Positions 1,259 to 37,006 of a DNA stretch of 39,721 nucleotides are shown here, in pieces. Every line of letters begins with the position of its first letter. Position 1 is the first letter of the stretch. The position numbers were made by a program, and so were the translations under genes. Location of the stretch: assembly GCA_964429285.1 (NCBI GenBank), contig CAYSBO010000004.1, positions 1-39,721 of the forward strand, in the 5' to 3' direction. The notes beneath the pieces were generated by a model. The model was not told the DNA's origin and ran no database searches. It saw only the letters and a program-made list of their open reading frames with translations. Source of the DNA: an uncultured Dehalococcoidales bacterium (GTDB lineage Bacteria; Chloroflexota; Dehalococcoidia; GIF9; AB-539-J10).

Positions 1259-2623
1259 ATGCCAGTTGCGGGTTCTGAAATCGTAAAGATGCTTCCCGGC
1301 AGAAAACCCTGTAGGGACTGTGGCTTCCCTACTTGTTTTGCCTTCGCTATGAAACTGGCCTCGGGCGGAACTACTGTGGACAAATGCCCCTACCTTTCGG
1401 ACGAGACGAAAGAGAAGTTGCTGGACCTTCTTGCGCCGCCGATAAAGCTTGTCACCGTAGGTGCTGGTGACAAGGCGGTACAAATTGGAAACGAAGAAGT
1501 GATATACCGGCATGAGAAGACCTTTGTCCATTCGCCAGGGATCGCTCTCCTCATCTCAGACAAAGATGACGATGCTAAGATCGAGGAGAAGATCAAGAAG
1601 ATAGAGGATTTGCAGTATCCGTGGGTCGGTGTAGACCTGGAGGCAGACTTGTTAGCACTGCGTTTCGAATCCGGGAGTAAGAACAAGTTTCTGGCTCTGG
1701 TGAAGAAGGTTTATGATTCAACAGACCTAGGCATGATCTTAATCTCCGAAGATATGGATGTCTTATTCGCTGCACGGGATATTTGCGCAGATAGGCACCC
1801 ACTCGTTTATCCCATAACCAAGGAAAACATTGATGAGGCCATTCCCAAGATCAAGGAGAATCTGACTCCGGTTGGCCTTCATGGGCATAGCGTTGAGGAA
1901 CTTGTTCCTCTGACTACCAAGCTGAAGGATGCGGGCATCGAGGAATTGGTTTTGGATCCGGGTTCAGACAATTTACTGGACGCGATAAGAGATCAGACTT
2001 TTGTCAGGAAGGCGGCACTAAAACAAGGTTTCAAGCCACTTGGGTATCCCACTATTGGTTTTCCTTGTTTCATGGCCAAGGATGGGTTGAAGGAAATGCT
2101 GGTGGGCGCTGCCTTCATAAACAAATGGGCTAGCCTCATTGTATTCTCTGATTTTGACCAGTATTCCCTGCTTCCTATTCTAGTTCAACGGCTTAACATC
2201 TACACCGATCCTCGTTTCCCCATGGCGGTAGAGGAGAAGTATTACGAAGTAGGAGAACCTGACGAATACTCTCCGGTTCTTGTCACGTCGAATTGGGCTT
2301 TGACCTACTTCCTGGTCTCTTCAGCAGTGGAGGCTACCAAGGTTCCTGCCTACGTTTGTGTTAAGGATGCGGAAGGGCTGGGTGTCCTGACTGCCTGGGC
2401 AGCGGGCAAGTTCAGTGGCGATTCCGTAGGAACATTCATCAAGAAGTCCGGCGTTGGGGACAGGGTGAAACATCGAAAGCTAGTTATCCCGGGGAAAGTA
2501 GCCAGGATCAAAGGTGAACTTGAAGACGCTCTCAATCTTGAGTGGGAGATAACGATCGGTCCCCGGGAGACGACCGGAATAGGAGCTTTTCTGCCTGGAT
2601 TTGCTAAGCAACTGAAGGGATAG
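1259..2623 (+). CDS. acsC: Corrinoid iron-sulfur protein large subunit (CFeSP gamma, AcsC/CdhE)
   Basis: 454 aa. The N-terminal C-x2-C-x4-C-x16-C [4Fe-4S] motif (CRDCGFPTCFAFAMKLASGGTTVDKCPY) is followed by a large barrel-sized domain. AGGAGG lies 6 nt upstream of the ATG. The gene is adjacent to acsB. Confidence 0.85.
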   Translation: MPVAGSEIVKMLPGRKPCRDCGFPTCFAFAMKLASGGTTVDKCPYLSDETKEKLLDLLAPPIKLVTVGAGDKAVQIGNEEVIYRHEKTFVHSPGIALLISDKDDDAKIEEKIKKIEDLQYPWVGVDLEADLLALRFESGSKNKFLALVKKVYDSTDLGMILISEDMDVLFAARDICADRHPLVYPITKENIDEAIPKIKENLTPVGLHGHSVEELVPLTTKLKDAGIEELVLDPGSDNLLDAIRDQTFVRKAALKQGFKPLGYPTIGFPCFMAKDGLKEMLVGAAFINKWASLIVFSDFDQYSLLPILVQRLNIYTDPRFPMAVEEKYYEVGEPDEYSPVLVTSNWALTYFLVSSAVEATKVPAYVCVKDAEGLGVLTAWAAGKFSGDSVGTFIKKSGVGDRVKHRKLVIPGKVARIKGELEDALNLEWEITIGPRETTGIGAFLPGFAKQLKG

Positions 2624-2642: not shown

Positions 2643-3146
2643 ATGGTTACAGAGGAACAAGTTGGCCAGGTAACAACTGAAATCTTAGGCTCCTATAGAA
2701 AAGATAGGAAAAACTTACTCCCCTTATTGCAGGAAGTCCAGACAAAGCTGGGGTATCTCCCCAAGGAAGCGATGAAAGGGATTGCCAGCTTCCTGGAGAT
2801 GCCGGAAGTCGAGGTCTGGGGGGTTGCCACCTTCTACAACCAGTTTCGCTTTGCCCCGTTAGGAAAATACCATATTGTGGTCTGTATGGGGACTGCCTGC
2901 CACCTAGCGGGAGGTAAGCTCATTATGGATGCCCTGGAGCGCGAGTTAGATATCAAAGTAGGCGAGACCACCGCGGATGGCTTCTTCAGCATGGAAAGAG
3001 TAGCCTGTATTGGATGCTGCATGCTGGCTCCCGTCATAGTAATAAAGGACAAAATCTATCCTAAGATGACGCCCTTCAAGGTGGAAGAAGTCTTGATACC
3101 GTATAAGCACGAAGCCGAAGGCGAGGGCGAAGATGAGGGGAGTTGA
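2643..3146 (+). CDS. NuoE/HydC/HoxE-like thioredoxin-fold [2Fe-2S] subunit (copy 1)
   Basis: 167 aa. The Cys pattern CMGTACHLAGG ... CIGCCMLAP is typical of NuoE-type 2Fe-2S proteins. The protein has an acidic C-terminal tail. It precedes a NuoF-like gene and has a paralog at 18882-19394. Confidence 0.85.
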   Translation: MVTEEQVGQVTTEILGSYRKDRKNLLPLLQEVQTKLGYLPKEAMKGIASFLEMPEVEVWGVATFYNQFRFAPLGKYHIVVCMGTACHLAGGKLIMDALERELDIKVGETTADGFFSMERVACIGCCMLAPVIVIKDKIYPKMTPFKVEEVLIPYKHEAEGEGEDEGS

Positions 3147-3182
3147 GGGAGGGCCCGCCCCCTTTTCCATTTTGTGTTTGAC

Positions 3183-5087
3183 ATGACTTTCAAGGAAATT
3201 AGCAGTAAGGCGAAGTCGGAATGGGAAGCTCTGCAGCAAGGCACTTATATTCTGGTGGGCGCCGCCACTTGTGGGCGGGCAGCCGGTGCTTTGGATGTAG
3301 TTGATGCTTTCAGGAAAGAGCTAACGAGAAGAAACCTGGAAGCACCAGTTATACAGGTGGGCTGCATGGGGTTGTGCCATGCTGAACCCCTAGTTGTCAT
3401 ATCCAAACCTGAATCTTTTCGTGTTGTCTACGCGAATGTAAGTCCGGAGGCTACGCAGCGCCTGGTGGAAGGTTACATTATGAGAGATGACCCTTGCTTT
3501 GAGCTTGCTTTGGGCACTCTTGAAGGAGGTGGAGGGGAAGCGATCTACGTTCCAGAACTGCCCAGGTTTGAGAAAGAACTTCACCTCATACTGGGCCGCT
3601 GTGGCCATATTGATCCTGAGAAAATAGATGATTATATTGCCAACGGGGGCTACACCGGTCTGGAGAGGGCGTTAGAGATGTCGCCCGAGGAAATAGTGGA
3701 AGAATTGAAGAAATCGGGGCTGCGTGGTAGGGGAGGAGCCGGGTTTCCTACTAGTCGGAAGTGGGATCAATGCCGTAACGCCAAAAGCAGGCCAAAATAT
3801 GTCATATGTAACGCTGATGAGGGCGACCCCGGTGCTTTTATGGATCGTGTGGTTTTGGAAAGCGACCCGAATCAAGTTATCGAGGGTATGATTATCGCTG
3901 GATATGCTGTAGGCGCTGAACAAGGTTACATCTATGTCCGTGCGGAATACCCGTTAGCTATTGAGCGTATCAGGATTGCCTTAAGGCAAGCGAAGGAACT
4001 GGGTCTTCTGGGAGAAGACATATTAGGGAGTGATTTTGGGTTCCACATCGAAATAGCAGCTGGGGCTGGCGCCTTCGTTTCGGGCGAAGCGACGGCGTTA
4101 GTTGCGGCTATGGAGGGTAGAAGAAGCGAACCCAGAGTCAAGCCTCCTCACCTTGTGGAGGCTGGCTTACGGAATAAGCCTACTTTGCTGAATAACGTTA
4201 AGACGTTTGCTTATGTCCCCTTGATAATTGAGCGTGGAGCGGATTGGTTCACCTCCATCGGCACCGAGGGAAGCAAAGGCACAGCGGTGTTTACCCTGGC
4301 GGGCAAGGTGGTTAACTCGGGGTTGACAGAAGTACCTATGGGGACCACTCTTCGGGAGCTTATCTATGATATCGGTGGCGGAATTACTGGCGATAAGCAG
4401 TTCAAAGCGGTACAGATAGGAGGGCCCTCAGGGGGTTGCCTTCCTGAGAGTTTGCTCGATAGCCCTATCGATTACGATTCGCTTCGAGAGGCCGGCTCTA
4501 TGATGGGTTCAGGGGGCATGATCGCCATGGATGAGGATAACTGTATGGTCGATGCTGCCAAGTTTTTTCTTGATTTCTCTACGAAGGAATCATGTGGGAA
4601 ATGCACTACGTGTCGCTTAGGGACTTTGCAGATGCTACAGATTTTGGAGGACATTACAGCAGGGCGAGGCACAATGGAGGATATAGACCTTCTTATCTCG
4701 CTAGCGGAGGATGTTAAGGCAGGGTCGCTTTGTGGCTTGGGCAAGACAGCTCCCAATCCTGTCCTCACGACGCTCCGCTATTTCCGGGATGAGTATGAGG
4801 CTCACGTCCTAGAGAAGCGTTGCCCTGCCAAAGTATGTCCTGAACTGATCGTGTACTACATACTCCCGGACAAGTGTGATAGGGCCTGTGAACACTGTGT
4901 TTTAACCTGTCCGACGGAAGCCATCAAGGGAGGAAAGGGCGAAGTCAAGGTTATAGATCAGGAAAAGTGTACTAAGTGCGGCACATGTTTGGAAGTGTGT
5001 CCGCCTGAGTACGATGCGGTGGTGAAACTATCGCCTGTTAGTTCGTTGCCCTCTACAAATTCAGCTGAGAAGAAAGCAGGGAAATGA
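3183..5087 (+). CDS. NuoF/HydB-like FMN and NAD(P)H-binding iron-sulfur flavoprotein (copy 1), with an N-terminal Trx-like 2Fe-2S domain and a C-terminal 2x[4Fe-4S] ferredoxin domain
   Basis: Motifs seen: GLRGRGGAGFPTSRKW, NADEGDPGAF, the N3-type cluster ESCGKCTTCR...SLCGLG, and C-terminal CDRACEHCVLTCP and CTKCGTCLEVCP. The ORF track starts at GTG 3174. I prefer ATG 3183 because MTFKEISSK aligns with the paralog N-terminus MNFEEIRSQ. The stop overlaps the cooC start (ATGA). Confidence 0.85.
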   Translation: MTFKEISSKAKSEWEALQQGTYILVGAATCGRAAGALDVVDAFRKELTRRNLEAPVIQVGCMGLCHAEPLVVISKPESFRVVYANVSPEATQRLVEGYIMRDDPCFELALGTLEGGGGEAIYVPELPRFEKELHLILGRCGHIDPEKIDDYIANGGYTGLERALEMSPEEIVEELKKSGLRGRGGAGFPTSRKWDQCRNAKSRPKYVICNADEGDPGAFMDRVVLESDPNQVIEGMIIAGYAVGAEQGYIYVRAEYPLAIERIRIALRQAKELGLLGEDILGSDFGFHIEIAAGAGAFVSGEATALVAAMEGRRSEPRVKPPHLVEAGLRNKPTLLNNVKTFAYVPLIIERGADWFTSIGTEGSKGTAVFTLAGKVVNSGLTEVPMGTTLRELIYDIGGGITGDKQFKAVQIGGPSGGCLPESLLDSPIDYDSLREAGSMMGSGGMIAMDEDNCMVDAAKFFLDFSTKESCGKCTTCRLGTLQMLQILEDITAGRGTMEDIDLLISLAEDVKAGSLCGLGKTAPNPVLTTLRYFRDEYEAHVLEKRCPAKVCPELIVYYILPDKCDRACEHCVLTCPTEAIKGGKGEVKVIDQEKCTKCGTCLEVCPPEYDAVVKLSPVSSLPSTNSAEKKAGK

Positions 5088-5851
5088 CCAAGACGATTGC
5101 TATCGCAGGGAAAGGCGGGACGGGCAAGACCACCGTTGCCGCCTTAGTGGTCAAGCTCCTTTCACAAAAGGGATTGGTACTGGCTGTAGATGCTGATCCG
5201 AGCACCAATCTTAACCAGGCGCTGGGACTACCTCTGGATGATGGTAGAACTGTGGGCAAAATACGCGAACAGATGACCGAGGATGTTTCCAAGGGTCGCT
5301 TCAATCCTACCATTGCCAAGCAGGAATATTTGTTCAGTAGGATAATGGAATCATTGGTAGAGTCCAAAGGTTTCGACCTCTTAGCTATGGGTCGCCCCGA
5401 AGGCCCCGGATGTTATTGTGCTTCTAATGAGTTTCTGCGTGTCTCCCTGGATAAGTTGGTCAAAGATTACAAATACGACTATATTGTTATGGATTGTGAG
5501 GCGGGCATGGAACATATTAGTCGCCAAACAACGAGGGATGTGGATGTTTTGCTTATTATGTCTGATCCCACGATGAGAGGCATCGGCACGGCGCGCCGAA
5601 TGAAGGACCTTATTGGGGAGCTAAGGACGAAGATTGGCGAAATGGGGCTCGTAGTCAATCGTGTTCAAGGAGAGTTATCTGCAGAAATGAAAACGGCAAT
5701 CGATGAATCAGGCCTTCAGATTGTTGCGTTGATCCCCGAGGACCCCGACATAGCCGGTCTTGAAATGCAGGGTAGGCCCGTAACTGAACTTGCCCAGGAA
5801 TCTCCTATTCGGCTAAAGGTCAAAGAGATAATCGAAGGCTTACATTTATGA
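5084..5851 (+). CDS. cooC: CooC/AcsF-type nickel-insertion ATPase (MinD/ParA-like P-loop NTPase)
   Basis: 255 aa. It has the deviant Walker A IAGKGGTGKTT and a CxC metal-binding motif (GPGCYCASNE), as in CODH/ACS maturation factor CooC. The start overlaps the nuoF-like stop by 4 nt. Confidence 0.8.
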   Translation: MTKTIAIAGKGGTGKTTVAALVVKLLSQKGLVLAVDADPSTNLNQALGLPLDDGRTVGKIREQMTEDVSKGRFNPTIAKQEYLFSRIMESLVESKGFDLLAMGRPEGPGCYCASNEFLRVSLDKLVKDYKYDYIVMDCEAGMEHISRQTTRDVDVLLIMSDPTMRGIGTARRMKDLIGELRTKIGEMGLVVNRVQGELSAEMKTAIDESGLQIVALIPEDPDIAGLEMQGRPVTELAQESPIRLKVKEIIEGLHL

Positions 5852-5916
5852 CTGAATGAACGTCCTCCCAGCGGAGGATTTAGAGAACAAGTCTGTAGAA
5901 AGGCAGGTAAGGACTT

Positions 5917-6780
5917 ATGGATACGAAAGAATACCCGGCAATATGGTTGCAGACTGCTGGATGTACCGGCTGCTCGGTTTCCCTGCTGAACGTGATAAAT
6001 CCCTCCATCAAGAACCTTCTAGTTGATGAAGTACTCCCGGGGAGTCACATAAATTTGAGGTTTCATCCTACTGTAATGGCTGGTTCGGGATCCCCTATAA
6101 TCGAAGCTATGGTGGATACCTCCCAGACGAAGAAAAAAGGTTACATCCTCATTGTAGAGGGAGCTATACCGACAGCGAAAGGTGGCATCCACGGAGTGGT
6201 AGGTGAAAAGGATGGTGGGCCAATGACCATGAAATCGTGGGTAGAAACACTGGCTGTGGATGCTTTGGCGGTGATTGCTCTGGGTAGCTGTGCCGCTTAT
6301 GGGGGCATTCCGGCTGCTTATCCCAATCCTACCCAGTGTCGCAGCGTCGGTGAGGTTCTTCAAGCCAAAGGCATCGATACCCCATTGGTAAATATCCCTG
6401 GCTGTCCACCGCACCCCGACTGGTTTGTAGGTACGGTGGCCACAATCTTGCTTTCCGGTCTGCCCAGTCCGGAGGATCTGGACGAGCTCGGGCGTCCCAA
6501 GGCTTTCTACGGACAAACGATCCACGAGAACTGCCCACGGCGTGCTTACTACGACGAGAATAAGTTTGCCAAAAAGTTTGGAGATCCTGGGTGCAACTAC
6601 GAACTGGGCTGCAGGGGCCCTGTAACCCATGCCGATTGTCCTGTAAGGTTGTGGAACAACAAGATGAACTGGTGTGTCGGCTGTGGTGCTACCTGCATAG
6701 GCTGTACCGAGCCTGAGTTCTTCGACATATCCCCACTCTATGAAAAAGTCAGCGAAGTTGCTCTGCCAGAGGAGGTTTGA
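5917..6780 (+). CDS. [NiFe] hydrogenase small subunit, three-cluster type, with no Tat signal and no C-terminal membrane anchor
   Basis: 287 aa. The proximal-cluster Cys are CTGCSVS, GSCAAYGG and GCPPHPD. The medial/distal region HENCPRR...GCRGPVTHADCP...CVGCGATCIGCTEPEFFD is collinear with mature group-1 small subunits such as E. coli HyaA (from memory). The N-terminus MDTKEYPAIWLQ lacks an RRxFxK twin-arginine motif. Confidence 0.9.
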   Translation: MDTKEYPAIWLQTAGCTGCSVSLLNVINPSIKNLLVDEVLPGSHINLRFHPTVMAGSGSPIIEAMVDTSQTKKKGYILIVEGAIPTAKGGIHGVVGEKDGGPMTMKSWVETLAVDALAVIALGSCAAYGGIPAAYPNPTQCRSVGEVLQAKGIDTPLVNIPGCPPHPDWFVGTVATILLSGLPSPEDLDELGRPKAFYGQTIHENCPRRAYYDENKFAKKFGDPGCNYELGCRGPVTHADCPVRLWNNKMNWCVGCGATCIGCTEPEFFDISPLYEKVSEVALPEEV

Positions 6781-6784
6781 ATCA

Positions 6785-8344
6785 ATGGGCAAGATAGTAA
6801 TCGATCCGGTAAGTCGTATTGAGGGGCATCTCAAAGTTGAGGCGGTGGTCGAGGATGGAAAAGTAAAGGAGGCCAAGAGTTCAGGGACCCTGTTCCGGGG
6901 CCTGGAGCTAATTATGAGAGGCAGAGACCCGCGCGATGCCCAGCGTATAACGCAGCGTATTTGTGGAGTCTGCCCTACAAGTCATTCTACCGCCGCGGCT
7001 TTGAACCTGGATAGCGCCTTTGGCATCGCTGACAAGATTCCCGATAACGGTAGAATCATACGCAACCTGATTTTGGGGGCAGCGCATATTGCTGACCATA
7101 TCCTTCACTTCTATCACCTAGTGGCTCTCGACTATGTAGATGTGGCTAGATTAGCGATATATGATGGCAACAACACCACACTAAATTCCATAAAGGACTT
7201 CATTGGGCGAGGGGAACTAGGTCCTTTTGTACCTCGGTACGAAGGTGATTATCGTCTACCGGATGAAGCTAACGAACAGGCGATAGCTCATTATGTCTCG
7301 GCGTTCGACATGCGTCGCAAGGCTCAGGAGATGCTCGCGCTGTTCGGTGGCAAGATGCCCCATAATATGGGTGTGATGCCGGGGGGAGTTGCTTCTGTGC
7401 CAACAGTGGACAATATGACATCCTTCCTGTGGAAATTGAAGGAGCTTCAAGAATTCATTGACAACGTGTACCTCCCCGACGTAGTGGCCATCGCCAAGGT
7501 GTACTCGGACCATTTTGAGATTGGGCGTGGTTGTGAGAATCTACTTGCTTATGGCTCTTATGAGCTGGACGGGAAGGAAGCCGACCTCACCAGTAGGAAA
7601 AGATTCTTCAAGCCGGGGACCACCTCTACCAGCCTCAAATTCAGTGAATTAGATCCGAGTAAGATCACAGAAGAGGTGAAGCATTCCTGGTATGTTGATT
7701 CTATCAGCGGGAGACATCCTTCGGAAGGAGATGTTATTCTTGATGAGGAGAAAAAGGGAGCTTATTCCTGGCTGAAATCACCTCGTTATGGTAAGGCAGT
7801 TTTTGAAGTTGGACCACTGGCTCGAATCATGGTCAACTATGTCAGCGGCGAGTCTGGAACCAAGAGCTTGGTTGATTCCGCCTTGTCGCAGGCAAATATA
7901 GGCGCCGACAAAATGTTTTCTGTCATGGGGCGCAATCTAGCTCGAGCCTTGGAAACGAAATTGATAGCCGACGCTATGTCGGGTTGGGTTCTAGAACTGA
8001 AGCCCGGACAGCCGGCTTATATAGACTATGAGCTGCCCGAAGAGTCTAGTGGAATGGGTCTGGTTGGTGCAGCGAGGGGTGCTCTGGGACACTGGATAGA
8101 CATAAAGGAAGGCAGGATTGCCAACTATCAAGTCATCACTCCTTCGACCTGGAATATTTCCCCAGAGGATGACCAGGACCAACCGGGTGCGCTGGAGCAG
8201 GCTATCGTGGGGACAACAATCAAGGATGAAGCTAATCCATTTGAGATAGTGCGCATCGTGAGGTCTTTTGATCCTTGTCTCGCTTGTTCTGTACATTTGG
8301 TCAATCTTAGAGGGCATGAGCTGACAAGGTTCAGAGTGTGCTAA
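6785..8344 (+). CDS. [NiFe] hydrogenase large (catalytic) subunit, uptake-type (group 1/2-like) sequence
   Basis: It carries the L1 motif RICGVCPTSHS and the L2 motif DPCLACSVH, followed by a 15-aa C-terminal extension. RIEGH, RGLELIMRGRDPRDA, YSWLKSPRY..EVGPLAR and ARGALGHW are collinear with E. coli HyaB (from memory). I chose ATG 6785, with GGAGG 9 nt upstream, over the ORF-track start 6740, which would overlap the small-subunit gene. Confidence 0.92.
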   Translation: MGKIVIDPVSRIEGHLKVEAVVEDGKVKEAKSSGTLFRGLELIMRGRDPRDAQRITQRICGVCPTSHSTAAALNLDSAFGIADKIPDNGRIIRNLILGAAHIADHILHFYHLVALDYVDVARLAIYDGNNTTLNSIKDFIGRGELGPFVPRYEGDYRLPDEANEQAIAHYVSAFDMRRKAQEMLALFGGKMPHNMGVMPGGVASVPTVDNMTSFLWKLKELQEFIDNVYLPDVVAIAKVYSDHFEIGRGCENLLAYGSYELDGKEADLTSRKRFFKPGTTSTSLKFSELDPSKITEEVKHSWYVDSISGRHPSEGDVILDEEKKGAYSWLKSPRYGKAVFEVGPLARIMVNYVSGESGTKSLVDSALSQANIGADKMFSVMGRNLARALETKLIADAMSGWVLELKPGQPAYIDYELPEESSGMGLVGAARGALGHWIDIKEGRIANYQVITPSTWNISPEDDQDQPGALEQAIVGTTIKDEANPFEIVRIVRSFDPCLACSVHLVNLRGHELTRFRVC

Positions 8345-8369
8345 TAGAAAACCGGAGGAAAAGTCGAGA

Positions 8370-8831
8370 GTGGGAAAAGTCGTTCTGGGAATAGGAAACA
8401 TCTTGTTTAGAGATGAAGGGATTGGTTGTCACGTGGTACGTGCTCTTGAGGGTATGGCTCTGGCCGATGCAAGAATAATAGATGGGGGCACATGTCCCGA
8501 TGTAGTTGCGCTGATTGAGGACACTGATAAACTTGTCATAGTGGATGCCGTCAAAGGAGGGGGGACGCCAGGCCAAATCTATCACTTTCGCCTTGAAGAC
8601 ATAGACCTACAAGAGAAGGCGTTTCTGTCCATTCACGACTTGAGCTTACTGGATAATCTAATGTTGATGAAGGTTTGGCGTAAGGTAGGGGAGGATGTCG
8701 TTATTGGGATTGAGCCGAAAGAAGTAGAGTGGGGCTTGGAATTGACGACGGAGCTTCGAGAGAAAATACCGGAGATAATAGAGGTCGTTATGGCAGAAGT
8801 CAATAATTCTGAAGGAGAGAGGAAATGCTGA
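8370..8831 (+). CDS. Hydrogenase maturation endopeptidase (HybD/HycI/HoxW family)
   Basis: 153 aa. The N-terminus VLGIGNILFRDEGIGCHV, then IDGGTCP and LVIVDAV, are typical of the family. It uses a GTG start with GGAGG about 11 nt upstream. It sits directly after a large subunit that retains a cleavable C-terminal extension. Confidence 0.8.
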   Translation: MGKVVLGIGNILFRDEGIGCHVVRALEGMALADARIIDGGTCPDVVALIEDTDKLVIVDAVKGGGTPGQIYHFRLEDIDLQEKAFLSIHDLSLLDNLMLMKVWRKVGEDVVIGIEPKEVEWGLELTTELREKIPEIIEVVMAEVNNSEGERKC

Positions 8832-9475
8832 TTTCAGAGCAAAAGCCACTAGAGGAAATCCTAAGTTATCTTGATGGAGATGAAAGCGTCTTTCTCATTG
8901 GCTGTAAGGGTTGTGCTGAGGGTTGGGGAAGTGGAGGGGAGCAGCAGGTAGCAGATATGGGAAACACTTTGCAGGAACAGGGTAAAGCCGTTTCGGGTTC
9001 AGTAGTTGTTGATATGCTGTGTGACCGTGCACTGATTAAATTGAAACTCAGGGCTTACAAGAAGGAAGTTGCTGCTGCCGATTCTATCCTGGTCTTGACC
9101 GATGGAGCTGGAGTGCAGACTGTGGCAGAAGTGGTGGATAAGGTGGTACATCCTGGCTGTAATACCCTGTCCGCAGGTGGGGCTCATGCCGAATGGAAAG
9201 AAGCAGAGCGCTGCCTTGAGTGCGGTGATTGTATGCTGGATTACACCGGCGGACTCTGTCCGATTGCCCGCTGTTCGAAGCATCTGCTTAATGGTCCGTG
9301 TGGCGGCTCACAAGACGGCAAATGTGAAGTTGATCCGGACATACCCTGTGTATGGCAACAGATTGTCGATCGTCTTGCCAGGATAGGGCAGCTTGACAAA
9401 TTGGAAGGGCTGGTGGCACCGAAGAACTGGAGCGTGAGTCTTACGTCAGGGCCACCGGTGAAGAGGCTTTCTTGA
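8825..9475 (+). CDS. metV: MetV-like protein (MTHFR C-terminal-domain / zinc-ribbon Fe-S protein), copy 1
   Basis: 216 aa. It has a Cys-rich C-terminal half, CLECGDCMLDYTGGLCPIARCSKHLLNGPCGGSQDGKCEV..PCVW, including the NGPCGG signature of MTHFR_C-type proteins. It lies upstream of metF, and its start overlaps the protease stop. Confidence 0.75.
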   Translation: MLISEQKPLEEILSYLDGDESVFLIGCKGCAEGWGSGGEQQVADMGNTLQEQGKAVSGSVVVDMLCDRALIKLKLRAYKKEVAAADSILVLTDGAGVQTVAEVVDKVVHPGCNTLSAGGAHAEWKEAERCLECGDCMLDYTGGLCPIARCSKHLLNGPCGGSQDGKCEVDPDIPCVWQQIVDRLARIGQLDKLEGLVAPKNWSVSLTSGPPVKRLS

Positions 9476-9560
9476 ATGTCAATGTGCGTGAGAGAGGCAG
9501 TCTTAGATGGACACCCATAAGCCACACGTGTCAAATAAACAAATCATCTAGGAGGCAAAA

Positions 9561-10292
9561 ATGAATGCACAAGTCCGAAAACCTTTTGAGGAAGTTCTAG
9601 GATACCTTGAAGGTAGAAAGAAGATATTCCTTATGGGTTGTGGGGGGTGCGCTACAATCTTTCATACGGGTGGCATAAGGGAAGTAGATGAAATGGCAGA
9701 GAAACTAACGAAAGAAGGGAAGGAGATAGTAGGTAAAATCGGATTGCCTTTTGCGGTATTCGCCTGCTACCTCCCTATGTCCTCCATGTTTCTGAAGGAA
9801 CACAGGGACGAGATAGAGCAGTGTGATGCCATCTTAATGCAGAGTTGTGGGGACGGTGCGCAAGCAGTGCGTGGATATCTGGAGGAGGAAATGGGCATTG
9901 TAAAGCCCATATATCCATCAAACAATGCTCTCGGGTTTTCAAGCGGAGGACCAAGCACGTTCAAGGAGGAATGCCAGGCCTGCGGGGAATGTGAGCTTGG
10001 GCGAACTGCTGGGATTTGTCCGCTGGTACAATGTCCCAAAGGGTTGTTGAACGGTCCCTGTGGAGGGACAACTACGGATGGAAAATGTGAAGTAGAACCT
10101 ACCCGAGATTGTGCTTGGGTTATGATATACAGAAGATTGCAGGCACTTGGGGAACTAGGCGACCTGTCGACAATACAGGAGCCGCATGATTGGAGCAAAG
10201 CGGTGAGGCCACGCAGTCTGGAAGTTGAAGCCATCGACCTACTACAGGAGCTGAAGGGAACAAAGAAGGTATTAGAGGCACTAGGCGTGTAG
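9561..10292 (+). CDS. metV: MetV-like protein, copy 2 (paralog of 8825-9475)
   Basis: 243 aa. It has the same architecture: N-terminal F(L/M)xGCxGCA domain, then CQACGECELGRTAGICPLVQCPKGLLNGPCGGTTTDGKCEV..DCAW. AGGAGG lies upstream of the ATG. Confidence 0.75.
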   Translation: MNAQVRKPFEEVLGYLEGRKKIFLMGCGGCATIFHTGGIREVDEMAEKLTKEGKEIVGKIGLPFAVFACYLPMSSMFLKEHRDEIEQCDAILMQSCGDGAQAVRGYLEEEMGIVKPIYPSNNALGFSSGGPSTFKEECQACGECELGRTAGICPLVQCPKGLLNGPCGGTTTDGKCEVEPTRDCAWVMIYRRLQALGELGDLSTIQEPHDWSKAVRPRSLEVEAIDLLQELKGTKKVLEALGV

Positions 10293-10317
10293 CAAATAGC
10301 AAGACCAGGAGGAACAC

Positions 10318-11247
10318 ATGAAAACGAAAGGCAATCTGGAGCGGGTGCTAGAGGCAGGACAATTTGCAGTCACAGGCGAACTAGGTCCACCACAGAGTGC
10401 TGACCCGGAGGTAATAAGGAGAAAGGCGAGAATCCTCAAGGGTAATATTGACGCTGCCAATGTCACCGATGGGCAGACCGCAGTGGTGCGGATGGCGTCA
10501 TGGGCAGCTTGCCTCATAGCCAAGGATGAAGGGCTGGATCCTATCGTGCAAATGACCTGCCGTGACCGCAATCGCATTGCTCTTCAGATGGACGTGCTAG
10601 GCATAGCAGCACTGGGCATGAGTAATATGCTGTGTCTGACTGGCGACCACCAGAAGTTCGGGAATCACCCTATGGCCAAAGGCGTCTATGACCTTGATTC
10701 TATTCAGTTTGTTAAGATGGTGAAGGATATGCGGGACGAGAGAAAGTTTCAGTGTGGTGAAGAGATGGAAGTTGGGCCGCGTCTCTTCATCGGGGCTGCT
10801 GCCAATCCCTTTGCCGACCCTGCTGAGTTCAGGGCGGTGCGTCTGGGCAAGAAAGTGGCAGCGGGCGTAGATTTCATCCAGACCCAGCTTGTTTATAATG
10901 TGGATAAATTTGCGGAATGGATGAAAAAGGTACGCGACCAAGGATTACATGAGAGGGTCAAGATATTGGCCGGTGTCGGCCCCATAAAGTCGGTTGGTGC
11001 TGCCAAGTATATGAAAACTAGAGTTCCTGGGATGGATGTGCCTGACGGCGTCGTTGCGCGGCTTCAAGGAGTACCTAAGGAGGAGGTACCTAGGGAAGGT
11101 ATCAAGCTTTGCGTTGACATTATTGAGCAGGTGCGCGAAATTGAGGGGGTGACTGGCATCCACGTCATGGCTATTGAGTGGGAGGAAGCTGTGCCTGAGA
11201 TACTAAAAGCGGCTGGTCTTCTGCCGCGCCCTAGGTTTGGCACATAA
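10318..11247 (+). CDS. metF: 5,10-methylenetetrahydrofolate reductase (MetF, acetogen/anaerobe type)
   Basis: 309 aa. FAVTGELGPP, ANVTDGQTA, MTCRDRN and CLTGDH are typical of MetF TIM-barrel flavoproteins. AGGAGG lies upstream. It sits in a Wood-Ljungdahl context. Confidence 0.9.
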   Translation: MKTKGNLERVLEAGQFAVTGELGPPQSADPEVIRRKARILKGNIDAANVTDGQTAVVRMASWAACLIAKDEGLDPIVQMTCRDRNRIALQMDVLGIAALGMSNMLCLTGDHQKFGNHPMAKGVYDLDSIQFVKMVKDMRDERKFQCGEEMEVGPRLFIGAAANPFADPAEFRAVRLGKKVAAGVDFIQTQLVYNVDKFAEWMKKVRDQGLHERVKILAGVGPIKSVGAAKYMKTRVPGMDVPDGVVARLQGVPKEEVPREGIKLCVDIIEQVREIEGVTGIHVMAIEWEEAVPEILKAAGLLPRPRFGT

Positions 11248-11894
11248 TGAAGGAGCATAGTTCTTCGTCAGCTAGTCCGTGGGAACGGAGTTTTGACCTC
11301 TCCTATAAACTTGCTCGTGAGCAATTAGTCAGAATCAATGACATGGAGGAACAGTGTCGCAAAAGCGGAGCCAGATACCTGGCACCTAACGAGGTAGTTC
11401 TGGATTATCTCAGCCAGCCGTACCATATTCTGCTTCCCGATGCCAAGATTGTGTCGGAAGGTGAGGGCGTGGAAGTTCCATTGAAAGACAAAATCCTGAT
11501 ATTACACTATTTTACTTCGGCGAAAGGGACACCGGCTAGTGGCATATTGATTACCTATAAACAAGTGCCCGGTGGTGTCAGCTATTTCTCGGCGTTTTAC
11601 AAGAGGACGATAATGCCTTTGGTGAAACACTTCGGCACGAAGCCTGAGTTGCTGAAAGTTATATCGGCGAAGTTCGGTGGCTACGAGACAGACCGTGGAG
11701 ATGAATCTGTGACGGTCAACGCCTTCCCTCATGTGCCTATAACGTTAGTGCTCTGGAAAGGCGATGACGAGGTGGCTCCCAATGGGACCATTCTGTTCGA
11801 TGCTAACGTTTCGGATTATCTTTCCACCGAGGATGTGGCTGTCCTTAGCGAAACTATCACCTGGAAGCTCGTCAAGAGTATTCCACCTGCCTAA
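11247..11894 (+). CDS. Conserved protein of unknown function, DUF3786-like (family often found in Wood-Ljungdahl clusters)
   Basis: 215 aa. I recognised the pattern by eye (LDYLSQPYHILLP, VNAFPHVPITLVLWKGDDEV..ILFDANVSDYLSTEDV). The start codon shares a base with the metF stop (TAATG), which suggests translational coupling. The family assignment is from memory only. Confidence 0.5.
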   Translation: MKEHSSSSASPWERSFDLSYKLAREQLVRINDMEEQCRKSGARYLAPNEVVLDYLSQPYHILLPDAKIVSEGEGVEVPLKDKILILHYFTSAKGTPASGILITYKQVPGGVSYFSAFYKRTIMPLVKHFGTKPELLKVISAKFGGYETDRGDESVTVNAFPHVPITLVLWKGDDEVAPNGTILFDANVSDYLSTEDVAVLSETITWKLVKSIPPA

Positions 11895-18881: not shown

Positions 18882-19394
18882 ATGGTGAATCCTACAACAG
18901 CGCAAGACACTCAGGTGCTCTCAGAGGACAAAGAGAAGGCAAATGAGAAGCGCCTGGATGAGATTCTATCGACCTATCAGGGTGAGAGAGAGGAGCTTAT
19001 TCCTATCCTGCAACAGGTCCAGCAGGCTTTTGGTTATCTGCCAGAGGCAGTGATGAAGAAGATAGCCAAATTCCTTCGGTTGCCGGAAAGCACCGTCTTT
19101 GGGGTGGGGACATTCTATGCCCAGTTCAAACTCGTCCCTTCAGGACGGAATATCATCAGGGTTTGTCGGGGTACTGCCTGTCATGTGCGCGGTAGTGGAC
19201 AAATCCTCGGCGAAATAGAGAAACAGTTGGGCATTACTGCCGGTGAGACTACACCGGATCTGGAATACTCGTTAGAGACGATAGCCTGCTTTGGTTCTTG
19301 TGCATTGGCACCAGTTGTGGTTACTAACAACAAGGTGTATGGGAGGATGGCGACGACAAAGGTGGAGGAGATATTGAAAAAGGAGACGCAGTGA
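18882..19394 (+). CDS. NuoE/HydC-like [2Fe-2S] subunit (copy 2)
   Basis: 170 aa. It has CRGTACHVRGS ... CFGSCALAP. The stop overlaps the next gene's GTG start. Confidence 0.87.
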   Translation: MVNPTTAQDTQVLSEDKEKANEKRLDEILSTYQGEREELIPILQQVQQAFGYLPEAVMKKIAKFLRLPESTVFGVGTFYAQFKLVPSGRNIIRVCRGTACHVRGSGQILGEIEKQLGITAGETTPDLEYSLETIACFGSCALAPVVVTNNKVYGRMATTKVEEILKKETQ

Positions 19395-21304: not shown

Positions 21305-21336
21305 GTATCGTATTAGCATGTAAGGAAGGTGCCAAG

Positions 21337-34684: not shown

Positions 34685-34700
34685 CCTGGAGGGAGAATAA

Positions 34701-36955: not shown

Positions 36956-37006
36956 TACATGGGTAAGCCTAGCACCTGGTGAGGTTCCTGCAAACCGGAA
37001 AACCAT

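What the first reader, a model, noticed from the sequence alone, without database searches (positions are those of the whole stretch)
2643..11894. Wood-Ljungdahl operon joins a HydBC/NuoEF-type flavoprotein and a cytoplasmic uptake-type [NiFe] hydrogenase to MetF-MetV-MetV: candidate new class of methylene-THF reductase complex
Seen in the sequence:
- Twelve + strand genes from acsB to the DUF3786-like gene are separated by at most 85 nt.
- Three start/stop overlaps occur (5084/5087, 8825/8831, 11247), so a single transcription unit is likely.
- After acsB-acsC the order is nuoE-like, nuoF-like, cooC, hydrogenase small and large subunits, protease, metV, metV, metF.
- The nuoF-like protein has the extra N-terminal 2Fe-2S and C-terminal 2x[4Fe-4S] domains of the B subunit of Bfu-type electron-bifurcating enzymes.
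- I found no hdrABC, mvhD, rnfC-like or HoxU/NuoG-like gene in this operon.

Established knowledge: the described anaerobic MTHFR architectures are MetF alone, MetFV, MetFV+HdrCBA+MvhD, and MetFV+RnfC2. The physiological electron donor and the energetic coupling of this step are a long-standing open issue.

Inference: this locus may encode a MetF/MetV2 reductase fed directly by H2 and/or NAD(P)H through the hydrogenase and flavoprotein. Such a complex could be confurcating or bifurcating, and I do not recall that composition being described.

Alternatives: the NuoEF pair plus hydrogenase could form a stand-alone NAD-linked hydrogenase that is merely co-transcribed. The NuoEF pair could also serve the FdhA fusion at 12118.
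Basis: partly seen in the sequence, partly recalled or inferred. Interest (0 to 1): 0.85.

Follow-up and report, generated by a model that had tools for sequence, protein, structure and literature searches.

The report
Hydrogenase wired to methylene-THF reductase (MetVF)
In this uncultured Dehalococcoidia bacterium, and in about a hundred other uncultured species, a cytoplasmic nickel-iron hydrogenase is always encoded right next to the MetV/MetF methylene-tetrahydrofolate reductase, which suggests an undescribed enzyme that uses H2 directly for the CO2-fixation step whose natural electron donor is still debated.

Summary
Twelve tightly packed + strand genes run acsB, acsC, nuoE, nuoF, cooC, [NiFe] small subunit, large subunit, protease, metV, metV, metF, DUF3786.

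- **Hydrogenase and MetVF belong together.** In 104 distinct species-level genomes (Dehalococcoidia, several Desulfobacterota lineages, one Actinomycetota MAG), metV follows the large subunit in 95 of 95 loci. metF lies within 5 kb in 78 of 78.
- **The hydrogenase is a cytoplasmic version of a periplasmic type.** It is group-1a/[NiFeSe]-like, catalytically intact and has no Tat signal.
- **The linked MetVs form their own clade.**
- **A module swap supports the role.** In five near-orthologous operons, an RnfC2-like NADH module sits exactly where hydrogenase+MetV1 sits here.
- **The hydrogenase is therefore most likely an electron-input module for MetVF**, giving a fifth reductase architecture. 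I found no description of it in the searchable literature.
- **NuoEF is not part of this unit.** A nuoF gene lies upstream of the hydrogenase in only 16 of 65 loci. NuoF1 orthologues always sit between acsC and cooC, even where no hydrogenase or metVF is nearby.
- **A NuoG-like gene does exist close by.** The next gene (12118) encodes an NfnA/StnA-like subunit fused to FdhA, a possible NuoEF partner.

All evidence is genomic. No cultured carrier was found.

The parts
5917..6780 (+). [NiFe] hydrogenase small subunit. Group-1a/[NiFeSe]-like with the C-terminal domain of three-cluster small subunits, no Tat signal peptide, so cytoplasmic.
   Evidence: Pfam Oxidored_q6 plus NiFe_hyd_SSU_C. Roughly half of aligned residues identical over its full length to the Desulfomicrobium baculatum [NiFeSe] small subunit, starting at the mature N-terminus. 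NCBIfam NiFeSe small-subunit model matched from position 38 of 314. None of 78 family members has an RRxF/L motif, even when read from the most upstream start.
6785..8344 (+). [NiFe] hydrogenase large subunit (519 aa) with all four Ni-Fe cysteine ligands and a 15-residue C-terminal extension.
   Evidence: Pfam NiFeSe_Hases 3.4e-153. NCBIfam NF033181 at 696.8 bits, above the cut-off of 600. Best solved relatives are periplasmic [NiFeSe]/[NiFe] group-1 enzymes at 1e-133. Motifs RIEGH, RxCGVCxxxH and DPCxxCxxH are intact in all or nearly all of 80 family members, and all 80 have the 15-residue extension.
8370..8831 (+). HycI/HybD-type maturation endopeptidase for the large subunit. Overlaps metV1 by 7 nt.
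   Evidence: Pfam HycI 1.6e-21. NCBIfam hydrogenase maturation protease. Present in 86 of 101 related loci.
8825..9475 (+). MetV1, the Fe-S subunit that always follows the hydrogenase. Proposed electron bridge from the small subunit's distal cluster to MetF.
   Evidence: Pfam DUF5981/MTHFR_C 9.5e-34. Follows the large subunit or protease in 95/95 loci. Forms a clade of its own in the MetV tree. Eleven cysteines are invariant in 76 sequences. All homologues of at least 59% identity whose contig shows the upstream genes follow a hydrogenase.
9561..10292 (+). MetV2, a second and optional MetV paralogue (37% identical to MetV1), found only in a subclade.
   Evidence: Pfam DUF5981 6.9e-32. Pairwise comparison. 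Forms a separate clade. Present in only a dozen or so loci (8 in the tree; also L250, L262). In L262 it sits upstream of the hydrogenase: cooC-cooC-metV2-SSU-LSU-hycI-metV1-metF.
10318..11247 (+). MetF, the flavin-containing catalytic subunit of methylene-THF reductase (MetVF type).
   Evidence: Pfam MTHFR 1.5e-42. Only weak similarity to NAD(P)H-dependent MTHFR structures, about 1e-11. Found within 5 kb of the hydrogenase in 78/78 loci.
11247..11894 (+). DUF3786 protein. Travels with metF in Wood-Ljungdahl operons of close relatives, not specifically with the hydrogenase.
   Evidence: Pfam DUF3786 1.8e-50. Follows metF in both the hydrogenase and the RnfC2 variants. Absent from the Desulfobacterota loci.
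2643..3146 (+). NuoE-like [2Fe-2S] subunit (Bfu C subunit). Belongs with the cdh/acs genes, not with the hydrogenase-MetVF unit.
   Evidence: Pfam 2Fe-2S_thioredx 1.7e-50. Context of orthologues.
3174..5087 (+). NuoF-like Bfu B subunit (FMN, NAD(P)H site, extra N-terminal 2Fe-2S and C-terminal 2x[4Fe-4S] domains). The likely start is ATG 3183.
   Evidence: Pfam. PDB 7t2r_B at 1e-218, plus 9bov_B, 8oh5_B and 7q4v_B. Orthologues lie between acsC and cooC, with or without a hydrogenase nearby. An independent gene call gives 634 aa.
5084..5851 (+). CooC/AcsF-type P-loop ATPase (nickel insertion into CODH/ACS). Last gene of the cdh/acs part.
   Evidence: Pfam CbiA, AAA_31 and ArsA_ATPase. Conserved after nuoF1 in relatives.
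1259..2623 (+). AcsC/CdhE-type large subunit of the corrinoid iron-sulfur protein (context).
   Evidence: Pfam CdhD plus FeS.
12118..16215 (+). 1365-aa fusion: NuoG-like N-terminal Fe-S region, GltD-like NAD(P)H module (NfnA/StnA-type BfuA), and a complete FdhA. Candidate partner of NuoEF1. Lies outside the finding's coordinates.
   Evidence: Pfam. PDB 9bov_A NfnA at 618 bits, 8oh5_C at 569 bits, and the FdhA domain at about 740 bits to 9t1s_L and 7qv7_S.

Best explanation
The region holds two functional units that happen to be fused into one operon in this lineage.

**Unit 1 (5917-11247): a hydrogen-dependent methylene-tetrahydrofolate reductase.**
- A group-1a-like [NiFe] hydrogenase has lost its export signal and stays in the cytoplasm.
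- It oxidises H2 and passes electrons down the three Fe-S clusters of its small subunit.
- The electrons go to the Fe-S protein MetV1 (here also MetV2), then to the flavin of MetF, which reduces methylene-THF to methyl-THF for the Wood-Ljungdahl pathway.
- The hydrogenase would then do the job that RnfC2 does with NADH in Acetobacterium woodii, and that HdrABC-MvhD does in Moorella.
- From standard textbook potentials (about -414 mV for H2, about -200 mV for methylene-THF), the reaction runs only in the reductive direction. It stays favourable at a few pascal of H2, roughly -13 kJ/mol at 1 Pa. That suits sediment and aquifer organisms.

**Unit 2 (2643-5851): nuoE-nuoF-cooC, part of the CODH/ACS gene set.** Its redox partner is unresolved. 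The NfnA/StnA-like FdhA fusion at 12118 and CODH/ACS itself are the leading candidates.

**What is shown:** gene content, intact catalytic motifs, absence of a Tat signal, universal hydrogenase-metV-metF linkage, and the module swap.

**What is inferred:** a physical complex, the electron path, the direction of the reaction, and the lack of energy coupling.
For: 1. **Linkage.** Among 104 distinct large-subunit loci (60-88% identity), metV follows in 95/95, metF lies within 5 kb in 78/78, and the small subunit is present in 93/94.
2. **Taxonomic spread.** Carriers are Dehalococcoidia, Syntrophobacteraceae, Syntrophaceae, Desulfobacteraceae and other Desulfobacterota MAGs, and one Actinomycetota MAG. 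In both the large-subunit tree and the MetV tree, the Desulfobacterota loci branch next to the same Dehalococcoidia subgroup, so the module moved as a unit.
3. **Reciprocal test.** Every MetV1 homologue of at least 59% identity whose contig shows the upstream genes follows a hydrogenase. The 75 hydrogenase-linked MetVs form one clade, apart from MetV2, from Hdr/MvhD-linked and RnfC2-linked MetVs, and from the RnfC2 N-terminal MetV domains.
4. **Module swap.** In L086, L112 and L274 the order is acsC-nuoE1-nuoF1-cooC-[675-aa MetV-domain + RnfC_N + Complex1_51K + 2x4Fe4S protein]-metV-metF(78-86%)-DUF3786. L275 and L276 are shorter contigs that show the same RnfC2-like-metV-metF-DUF3786 part. 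The RnfC2-like gene occupies exactly the slot of SSU-LSU-hycI-metV1.
5. **A working, cytoplasmic enzyme.** All Ni-Fe ligand motifs, the 15-residue C-terminal extension and a dedicated protease are present, and none of 78 small subunits has a Tat motif. The closest solved and curated relatives are periplasmic [NiFeSe]/[NiFe] enzymes.
6. **Pathway context.** The module sits inside Wood-Ljungdahl gene clusters in several lineages, next to acsE/acsD, acsB/acsC or DUF3786.
7. **MetVF accepts different input modules.** The published types are in PMC8760232. Further HoxEFU-like and NuoEF-HdrA-MvhD variants were seen here.
8. **NuoEF is independent of the hydrogenase**.
Against: - All evidence is genomic. 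No expression, co-purification or activity data exist, and every carrier found is an uncultured MAG.
- No SSU::MetV or LSU::MetV fusion protein appeared among the best 150 representatives of MetV relatives. Direct contact is therefore unproven. Co-transcription could instead reflect co-regulation through a soluble carrier.
- An uncoupled H2-to-methylene-THF reaction dissipates 13-40 kJ/mol. By my own bookkeeping it would leave little or no surplus reduced ferredoxin for chemiosmotic ATP synthesis during growth on H2 + CO2. That argues either for a hidden coupling or for a role as an electron sink or in carbon assimilation.
- The MetF partner is not one orthologue across the clade. Two MetF types, about 40% identical to each other, are used.
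- Many loci carry a histidine kinase and a response regulator inside the module, which leaves room for a regulatory element.
Confidence: 0.62

Rival explanations
1. NuoEF (a Bfu-type flavoprotein), the hydrogenase and MetV2F form one complex that confurcates or bifurcates electrons among H2, NAD(P)H, ferredoxin and methylene-THF.
For: - The genes are in one operon in the window and in about 16-18 close relatives.
- NuoF1 is a true Bfu B subunit.
- In other Chloroflexota, NuoEF-type modules are encoded directly beside metVF: L221 (HoxU-like + NuoE + NuoF + MetV + MetF) and L122/L124 (NuoEF + NuoG::HdrA-like + MvhD + MetV). Flavoprotein input to MetVF therefore does occur.
- My own energetic bookkeeping favours some coupling.
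Against: - A nuoF gene lies upstream of the hydrogenase in only 16 of 65 loci.
- NuoF1 orthologues stay with acsC/cooC when the hydrogenase and metVF are absent, replaced by RnfC2, or placed elsewhere in the genome.
- cooC always separates nuoF from the hydrogenase. In L022 and L031 two further genes do so as well.
- The connector subunits seen in the genuine NuoEF-MetVF loci (HoxU-like, NuoG::HdrA, MvhD) are missing here.
Confidence: 0.1
2. The hydrogenase and MetVF are co-expressed but are not a complex. The cytoplasmic hydrogenase reduces a soluble carrier such as ferredoxin, flavodoxin or MetV acting as a free shuttle. MetVF, a type II reductase, then uses that carrier.
For: - Purified type II MetVF enzymes accept reduced ferredoxin in vitro (PMC8760232).
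- No hydrogenase::MetV fusion was found.
- MetF types are exchanged within the clade, while MetV tracks the hydrogenase.
Against: - H2 at environmental pressures is too weak a reductant to reduce ferredoxin without coupling (standard potentials, my own knowledge).
- No carrier gene is conserved in the module.
- A 95/95 immediate adjacency, including a start/stop overlap of hycI and metV1 in the window, is typical of subunits of one enzyme.
- A dedicated MetV clade co-transferred with the hydrogenase.
Confidence: 0.15
3. The hydrogenase is an H2 sensor, or the MetV-hydrogenase pair is a redox sensor, that controls expression of Wood-Ljungdahl genes rather than supplying electrons.
For: - A histidine kinase (cNMP-binding or GAF domain, plus HisKA and HATPase) lies between metV and metF, and a response regulator lies after metF, in 22-25 loci.
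- A MetV::histidine-kinase fusion protein exists (P0130).
- The hydrogenase is cytoplasmic and has no Tat signal, like the known sensory enzymes.
Against: - Known sensory (group 2b) hydrogenases lack the C-terminal extension and need no endopeptidase (my own knowledge). Here 80/80 large subunits carry the extension, and 86/101 loci encode the protease.
- By sequence the enzyme is group-1a-like, far from group 2.
- The window and its close relatives have no kinase inside the module.
Confidence: 0.04
4. The enzyme runs in reverse. It oxidises methyl-THF and releases H2 during acetate or methyl-group oxidation through a reversed Wood-Ljungdahl pathway.
For: - Dehalococcoidia and Syntrophobacteraceae-type organisms are often proposed to be syntrophs or fermenters.
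- [NiFe] hydrogenases are reversible in principle.
Against: A gap of about 214 mV means H2 would have to stay near 1e-7 bar for the reaction to proceed without energy input (standard potentials, my own calculation). Syntrophic acetate oxidisers are thought to need reverse electron transport for this step (PMC10689502). No membrane or coupling subunit is encoded in the module.
Confidence: 0.05

Closest known systems
Type III MTHFR, RnfC2-MetV-MetF of Acetobacterium woodii (as summarised in PMC8760232)
   Same: - It has a MetV/MetF core plus a dedicated, co-encoded electron-input module.
- RnfC2 carries an extra N-terminal MetV-like domain, which parallels the two MetV proteins in the window.
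- In five close relatives an RnfC2-like gene occupies the very slot that the hydrogenase plus MetV1 occupies here.
   Different: The input module here is a two-subunit [NiFe] hydrogenase with its own maturation protease, not an NADH-oxidising flavoprotein. The donor would be H2, not NADH.
Type IV MTHFR, HdrCBA-MvhD-MetVF of Moorella thermoacetica and Sporomusa ovata (PMC8760232, PMC9430772)
   Same: - It has a MetVF core with Fe-S/flavin input subunits borrowed from hydrogenase-associated systems.
- S. ovata membranes show H2-dependent methylene-THF reduction.
- In Desulfobacterota MAGs an HdrA-MvhD-metV-metF set lies immediately upstream of the hydrogenase-metV-metF set.
   Different: - No hdr or mvhD genes lie in the window's operon.
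- The S. ovata route runs through a periplasmic, cytochrome-b-linked hydrogenase and quinone. Here the hydrogenase is cytoplasmic and encoded directly beside metV.
- No bifurcating flavoprotein is present in the module.
Periplasmic group 1a [NiFe]/[NiFeSe] hydrogenases (Desulfovibrio vulgaris Hys, Desulfomicrobium baculatum)
   Same: - Roughly half the residues are identical over the full length of both subunits.
- The small-subunit architecture, the Ni-Fe ligand motifs, the C-terminal processing site and the HybD/HynC-type protease are the same.
   Different: - No Tat signal peptide in any of 78 family members.
- Cysteine instead of selenocysteine.
- No cytochrome c3 or cytochrome b partner gene. 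The invariant neighbour is MetV instead.
- An insertion of about 22 residues in the large subunit.
MvhAGD-HdrABC of methanogens and NiFe-HydABCSL of Acetomicrobium mobile (PMC8880783)
   Same: In each, a cytoplasmic [NiFe] hydrogenase is plugged as an H2-input module into a larger oxidoreductase. HydABCSL shows that Bfu NuoEF-type subunits can partner a [NiFe] enzyme.
   Different: Those hydrogenases are group 3, with a small ferredoxin-like partner and a bifurcating flavoprotein (HdrA, or HydB together with HydA). Here the enzyme is group-1-like, there is no HydA/HoxU connector, and NuoEF is not linked to it across genomes.
StnABC / NfnABC Bfu-type transhydrogenases (PMC7483475; PDB 8oh5, 9bov)
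   Same: NuoE1 and NuoF1 match their C and B subunits. The 12118 protein matches their A subunit (NuoG-like Fe-S region plus GltD-like module).
   Different: - In the window the A-type subunit is fused to what looks like a complete, active-type FdhA.
- It is separated from nuoEF1 by eight genes.
- This concerns the NuoEF part of the finding, not the hydrogenase-MetVF unit.

Membership tests
[NiFe] hydrogenase, group 1 (1a / [NiFeSe]-like) | Large subunit has the N-terminal RxCGxCxxxH and C-terminal DPCxxCxxH Ni-Fe ligand motifs | tested here: met
   RICGVCPTSH and DPCLACSVH in the window. Intact in 80/80 family members. NCBIfam NF033181 at 696.8 bits, above the cut-off of 600.
[NiFe] hydrogenase, group 1 (1a / [NiFeSe]-like) | Small subunit has the C-terminal domain that carries the medial and distal Fe-S clusters | tested here: met
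   Pfam NiFe_hyd_SSU_C 4.6e-31. Full-length alignment to 1cc1_S and 4kl8_S with the cluster cysteines and the histidine conserved.
[NiFe] hydrogenase, group 1 (1a / [NiFeSe]-like) | Twin-arginine signal peptide on the small subunit and periplasmic location | tested here: not met
   The ORF begins at the mature N-terminus and leaves no room upstream. 0 of 78 family members has an RRxF/L motif.
[NiFe] hydrogenase, group 1 (1a / [NiFeSe]-like) | Cytochrome c3 or cytochrome b encoded as electron acceptor | tested here: not met
   No cytochrome gene lies in the operon or in the conserved neighbourhood. MetV is the invariant neighbour.
[NiFe] hydrogenase, group 1 (1a / [NiFeSe]-like) | Formal HydDB or phylogenetic placement | not testable with these tools
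   Only similarity ranking is available: group 1a 1e-133, Hyd-2 1e-98, Hyd-1/MBH about 1e-90, group 2a 1e-63, group 3 about 1e-26.
MetVF-type methylene-THF reductase core (type II) | MetF (PF02219) with an adjacent MetV (PF12225) that carries conserved Fe-S cysteines | tested here: met
   Pfam. Eleven cysteines are invariant in MetV1 and thirteen in MetV2.
MetVF-type methylene-THF reductase core (type II) | Methylene-THF reduction with reduced viologen or ferredoxin, and none with NAD(P)H | not testable with these tools
   Biochemical property, defined in PMC8760232.
Type III MTHFR (RnfC2-MetV-MetF) | rnfC2 gene (MetV domain + RnfC_N + FMN/NADH domain) next to metVF | tested here: not met
   Absent from the window. 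Present in the orthologous slot of L086, L112, L274, L275 and L276.
Type IV MTHFR (HdrCBA-MvhD-MetVF) | hdrA, hdrB, hdrC and mvhD encoded with metVF | tested here: not met
   None anywhere in the 39.7-kb window. HdrA-MvhD-metVF occurs as a separate neighbouring set in Desulfobacterota loci.
Bfu family (HydABC / NfnABC / StnABC) | B subunit: NuoF core plus an N-terminal 2Fe-2S domain and a C-terminal 2x[4Fe-4S] domain. C subunit: NuoE-like. | tested here: met
   PDB matches over residues 25-610 at 1e-218 to 1e-182. Pfam.
Bfu family (HydABC / NfnABC / StnABC) | A subunit (NuoG-like Fe-S N-terminus plus catalytic or GltD module) encoded with B and C | tested here: inconclusive
   None within 2643-11894. 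An NfnA/StnA-like::FdhA gene lies at 12118, eight genes from nuoF1. NuoF1 orthologues in other genomes have no adjacent A-type gene.
NAD-linked soluble [NiFe] hydrogenase (group 3d Hox/SH) or NiFe-HydABCSL | Group 3 large and small subunits plus a HoxU/HydA connector encoded with NuoEF-like subunits | tested here: not met
   The large subunit is group-1-like (group 3 matches reach only about 1e-26). No HoxU/HydA gene lies in the operon. NuoEF and the hydrogenase occur independently of each other.
Regulatory H2-sensing hydrogenase (group 2b) | No C-terminal extension on the large subunit, no dedicated endopeptidase, and a partner histidine kinase | tested here: not met
   A 15-residue extension in 80/80 large subunits and a protease gene in 86/101 loci. 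A kinase is present in only a subset of loci, and not in the window.

The most novel reading that the evidence does not exclude
The hydrogenase-MetV(-MetV2)-MetF assembly is energy-coupled rather than a simple downhill H2:methylene-THF oxidoreductase. In this reading it uses the large drop from H2 to methylene-THF to co-reduce ferredoxin, formally like Mvh-Hdr in methanogens. It would do so either on its own, through an unrecognised bifurcating centre, or in this lineage together with the co-transcribed Bfu-type NuoEF pair. That would make methylene-THF reduction the long-sought energy-conserving step of the Wood-Ljungdahl pathway in these organisms.
Probability: 0.1. Interest if true: 0.95.

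Novelty: new variant of a known kind. Interest (0 to 1): 0.8.

Why it matters
- **It addresses a long-standing open question.** Which electron donor feeds MetVF-type methylene-THF reductases, and whether that step conserves energy, is unresolved in acetogen bioenergetics. The 2021 review (PMC8760232) lists four architectures and argues that the in-vitro donor, ferredoxin, cannot be the physiological one.
- **It offers a concrete, testable fifth answer.** A dedicated cytoplasmic hydrogenase is encoded immediately beside MetV in about a hundred uncultured species from at least three phyla. The proposal is that H2 itself is the donor.
- **It assigns a partner to an orphan hydrogenase.** A 'group 1 uptake hydrogenase' in Dehalococcoidia had no identifiable electron acceptor (Hug et al. 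2013, PMC3971608).
- **It may explain an ecological adaptation.** Abundant sediment and aquifer Chloroflexota could draw in H2 at very low partial pressure by coupling it to the most electropositive step of the pathway.
- **It shows MetVF as a modular acceptor.** Hydrogenase, RnfC2, Hdr-MvhD, HoxEFU-like and NuoEF-HdrA modules all appear as interchangeable inputs. This is useful for engineering H2-driven C1 reduction.

Tried and rejected
- **Literature.** Nine full-text searches and ten papers yielded no description of a hydrogenase-metVF cluster. The library holds only Creative Commons PMC papers and bioRxiv, so a subscription paper could have been missed.
- **Rosetta-stone fusions.** A search of 1.84 billion representatives with MetV1 found MetV::MetF, MetV::RnfC, MetV::histidine kinase and MetV::Rieske fusions. 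It found no hydrogenase::MetV fusion.
- **Solved structures.** There is no MetV homologue in the PDB by sequence, so no structural template exists for the interface. The tools have no multimer prediction, so pairwise interface screening was not possible and I ran no monomer models.
- **RNA elements and signals.**
  - Rfam search of the window and tRNA scan: nothing.
  - The 223-nt spacer before 12118 and the hairpin between nuoE and nuoF fold no better than shuffled sequence.
  - Promoter- and terminator-like sites occur at chance frequency.
- **Source lookup.** An exact-sequence lookup of the window's large subunit found nothing on record. The 100%-identical database entry P0001 led to three short Logan contigs.
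- **Rejected readings.**
  - A Hox-like NAD-linked hydrogenase made of NuoEF plus this hydrogenase. The modules occur independently and the enzyme is of the wrong group.
  - An H2-sensor hydrogenase. The processing extension and the protease are present.
  - Reverse operation producing H2. The thermodynamics do not allow it.
- **Cultured carrier.** None appeared among the listed hits of the three relevant scans of 185,579 species genomes. Each scan lists at most its 80 best hits.

Full report

Yes. ORF listing and Pfam give twelve + strand genes:
- acsB/CdhC (93-1190)
- acsC (1259-2623)
- nuoE-like (2643-3146)
- nuoF-like (3174-5087)
- cooC-type ATPase (5084-5851)
- [NiFe] small subunit (5917-6780)
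- large subunit (true start 6785, end 8344)
- HycI-type protease (8370-8831)
- MetV1 (8825-9475)
- MetV2 (9561-10292; 37% identical to MetV1)
- MetF (10318-11247)
- DUF3786 (11247-11894)

Promoter- and terminator-like matches occur at chance frequency. The single intergenic hairpin, between nuoE and nuoF, is no more stable than shuffled sequence. The same order nuoE-nuoF-cooC-SSU-LSU-hycI-metV is found in an independent assembly.

The NuoF-like protein is a true Bfu B subunit. It matches 7t2r_B at 1e-218, and also NfnB, Stn and HydB, over residues 25-610.

One correction is needed. A NuoG-like module does exist nearby. The gene 223 nt downstream (12118-16215) encodes a protein whose first 640 residues match NfnA/StnA (9bov_A at 618 bits, 8oh5_C at 569 bits). 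The rest is a complete FdhA.

**2. What kind of hydrogenase is it?**

Both subunits align end to end with periplasmic group-1a [NiFeSe]/[NiFe] enzymes, with roughly half the residues identical. The large subunit passes NCBI's NiFeSe-type equivalog model, at 696.8 bits against a cut-off of 600.

The small subunit starts at the mature N-terminus. Among 78 family members read from the most upstream possible start, none has a twin-arginine motif. The ligand motifs RxEGH, RxCGVCxxxH and DPCxxCxxH are intact in all or nearly all of 80 large subunits, and all 80 carry the 15-residue C-terminal extension. A maturation protease is encoded in 86 of 101 loci.

It is therefore a catalytically competent, cytoplasmic derivative of a normally periplasmic enzyme. 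The usual cytochrome partner is missing.

**3. Comparative genomics of the hydrogenase-MetVF unit**

Two scans of one-genome-per-species collections were run. One used the window's large subunit and the other used a distant Desulfobacterota homologue. Together they gave 104 distinct loci at 60-88% identity:
- metV follows the large subunit or protease within 1.5 kb in 95 of 95 loci with enough sequence
- metF lies within 5 kb in 78 of 78
- the small subunit precedes in 93 of 94

Carriers are mostly Dehalococcoidia. They also include Syntrophobacteraceae, Syntrophaceae, Desulfobacteraceae and other Desulfobacterota MAGs, and one Actinomycetota MAG. All are uncultured.

The reciprocal scan with MetV1 found a hydrogenase upstream of every homologue of at least 59% identity whose contig reaches that far. 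In a neighbour-joining tree, the 75 hydrogenase-linked MetVs form a single clade. That clade is distinct from MetV2, from Hdr/MvhD-linked MetVs, from RnfC2-linked MetVs and from the MetV-like domain of RnfC2. This is a distance tree without support values.

The Desulfobacterota loci branch beside the same Dehalococcoidia subgroup in both the large-subunit tree and the MetV tree, so the module was transferred as a unit. MetV tracks the hydrogenase more closely than MetF does: the distance correlations with the large subunit are 0.70 and 0.59. Two MetF types about 40% identical to each other are used across the clade.

MetV1 has eleven invariant cysteines, enough for two [4Fe-4S] clusters plus a further site.

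**4. The module swap**

Five Dehalococcoidia genomes are otherwise near-orthologous to the window. In L274, for example, acsC is 91% identical, nuoF1 82%, cooC 85%, metF 86% and the FdhA fusion 85%. In the slot between cooC and metV these genomes carry a 675-aa protein with a MetV domain, RnfC_N, the NuoF-type FMN domain and two [4Fe-4S] motifs. That slot holds SSU-LSU-hycI-metV1 in the window. L275 and L276 are shorter contigs that show only the RnfC2-like-metV-metF-DUF3786 part.

This is the architecture of A. woodii RnfC2, the NADH-input subunit of the type III reductase (PMC8760232). Replacement of one module by the other at the same position, in front of the same metF, is the strongest indication here that the hydrogenase is an electron-input module for MetVF.

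Other lineages add further inputs:
- HdrA-MvhD-metVF lies directly upstream of the hydrogenase set in Desulfobacterota
- HoxU-like + NuoE + NuoF + MetV + MetF occurs in L221
- NuoEF + NuoG::HdrA-like + MvhD + MetV occurs in L122 and L124

**5. NuoEF does not belong to that unit**

- A nuoF gene lies within 6 kb upstream of the hydrogenase in only 16 of 65 loci.
- A scan with NuoF1 shows its orthologues (64-83% identity) in acsB-acsC-nuoE-nuoF-...-cooC in nearly every locus where the flanking genes are visible.
- That includes genomes where no hydrogenase or metVF lies within 10 kb (L089-L096) and the RnfC2 variants.
- In SPRUCE 309 the two units are about 18 kb apart on opposite strands (L063 and L092).
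- In L022 and L031 two unrelated genes, a cNMP-binding protein and an acyl-CoA synthetase-like gene, separate cooC from the hydrogenase.

NuoEF1 is thus a fixture of the cdh/acs cluster, which in relatives includes archaeal-type CdhA and CdhB upstream. Its partner is open. The NfnA/StnA-like FdhA fusion at 12118 has no nuoEF pair directly beside it, whereas homologous GltD-type A subunits elsewhere usually follow nuoEF directly. However, NuoF1 orthologues also occur without such a gene nearby. I rate NuoEF1 working with the FdhA fusion and NuoEF1 working with CODH/ACS as about equally likely. Both are more likely than NuoEF1 working with the hydrogenase-MetVF unit.

**6. Mechanism proposed**

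The proposed electron path is:
- H2 is oxidised at the Ni-Fe site
- electrons pass through the proximal, medial and distal clusters of the small subunit
- they move to the clusters of MetV1 (and MetV2 where present), then to the flavin of MetF
- MetF reduces methylene-THF to methyl-THF, which is handed to AcsE and the corrinoid protein

Gene content, motifs and linkage are shown. The complex and the electron path are inferred.

With standard potentials (about -414 mV for H2 and about -200 mV for methylene-THF, from my own knowledge), the reaction releases about 41 kJ/mol under standard conditions. It still releases about 13 kJ/mol at 1 Pa H2. The reverse reaction would need roughly 1e-7 bar H2. 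The enzyme should therefore work reductively, and it would allow H2 uptake at very low partial pressures.

There is a caveat. An uncoupled reaction leaves little or no surplus reduced ferredoxin for chemiosmotic ATP synthesis on H2 + CO2 alone. Either these organisms use the pathway as an electron sink or for carbon assimilation, as Hug et al. proposed for GIF9 Chloroflexi (PMC3971608), or some coupling exists that the sequences do not reveal.

**7. Comparison with what is known**

The review by Oppinger et al. (PMC8760232) lists four reductase types: MetF alone, MetVF, RnfC2-MetVF and HdrCBA-MvhD-MetVF. None contains a hydrogenase.

Sporomusa ovata membranes show H2-dependent methylene-THF reduction. 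That route runs through a periplasmic, cytochrome-b-linked hydrogenase, quinone and the Hdr-type reductase (PMC9430772).

Genome papers on Wood-Ljungdahl Chloroflexi, Actinobacteria and Acetothermia describe Hdr/MvhD or RnfC links only. Nine full-text searches found no description of this cluster, within the limits of the library.

I therefore file it as a new variant of a known kind: a fifth input module for MetVF, built from a relocated group-1a-like hydrogenase.

**8. Verdict**

The hydrogenase link to MetVF holds. The inclusion of NuoEF does not.
- Confidence in functional coupling of the hydrogenase to MetVF is about 0.6.
- Interest is high. The finding makes an old question directly testable and applies to a widespread group of uncultured organisms.

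Noticed in passing
window 12118-16215 (+): A 1365-aa fusion. It has a NuoG-like N-terminal Fe-S region and a GltD-like NAD(P)H module, both homologous to the A subunit of NfnABC/StnABC. These are followed by what looks like a complete, cysteine-type FdhA (about 740 bits to F420-dependent FDH and HDCR FdhF). It may be a Bfu-type NAD(P)H/ferredoxin-linked formate dehydrogenase that borrows NuoEF1.
   Followed up: partly
window 18882-24300 (+): A second nuoE-nuoF pair (50% and 57% identical to the first) is followed directly by a NuoG::FdhA fusion of 987 aa. This is a separate Bfu-type formate dehydrogenase. In some relatives this set follows DUF3786 directly, in place of the GltD::FdhA fusion.
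   Followed up: partly
window 2643-5851; loci L081-L097, L102, L110, L112, L274: A Bfu-type NuoE/NuoF pair with no adjacent A subunit is conserved between acsC and cooC in the archaeal-type cdh/acs clusters of many Dehalococcoidia. It is present whether or not a hydrogenase or metVF lies nearby. Its redox partner is unknown.
   Followed up: partly
L221 11657-17442; L122 9094-17740; L124 636-8390: Further apparently undescribed input modules sit beside metVF in Chloroflexota. One is HoxU-like (223 aa) + NuoE + short NuoF + MetV + GAF histidine kinase + MetF + response regulator. The other is a NuoE fusion + Bfu-type NuoF + a 1084-aa NuoG-N::HdrA-like protein + MvhD + MetV, with MetF and an HdrC-like protein following.
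   Followed up: partly
L064 12729-13910 and about 22 other loci; protein P0130: In Desulfobacterota and some Dehalococcoidia loci a histidine kinase (cNMP-binding domain + HisKA + HATPase) lies between metV and metF, and a receiver-only response regulator follows metF. A natural MetV::histidine-kinase fusion (527 aa) also exists. This hints that a MetV domain can act as a redox-sensing input.
   Followed up: no
proteins P0121, P0125, P0251, P0158: MetV::MetF single-chain fusions (about 541-548 aa) and a MetV::Rieske fusion (385 aa) appear among the closest database representatives of MetV1. No hydrogenase::MetV fusion was seen.
   Followed up: partly
L059, L060, L064-L066, L070, L071, L077 (about 6-8 kb before the hydrogenase): The Syntrophobacteraceae-type MAGs carry HdrA-MvhD-metV-metF immediately upstream of hydrogenase-hycI-metV-kinase-metF-regulator. 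They therefore have two differently fed MetVF reductases side by side.
   Followed up: partly
window 33542-37843 (+): Four genes encode two HGD-D family subunits and two BcrAD/BadFG-type ATPases. The set resembles an ATP-dependent benzoyl-CoA reductase or a 2-hydroxyacyl-CoA dehydratase with its activators.
   Followed up: no
window 3174-3185 and 6740-6787: Two start-site details. nuoF1 probably starts at ATG 3183, giving 634 aa as in an independent gene call, not at GTG 3174. The large-subunit ORF's first ATG (6740) overlaps the small-subunit gene, and the real start is 6785, behind a GAGGAGG ribosome-binding site.
   Followed up: yes
window 7142-7207 (large-subunit residues about 120-141): The large subunit has an insertion of about 22 residues (VARLAIYDGNNTTLNSIKDFIG) relative to the D. 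vulgaris [NiFeSe] enzyme. Its role is unknown. It could be a surface feature connected with the new partner.
   Followed up: no
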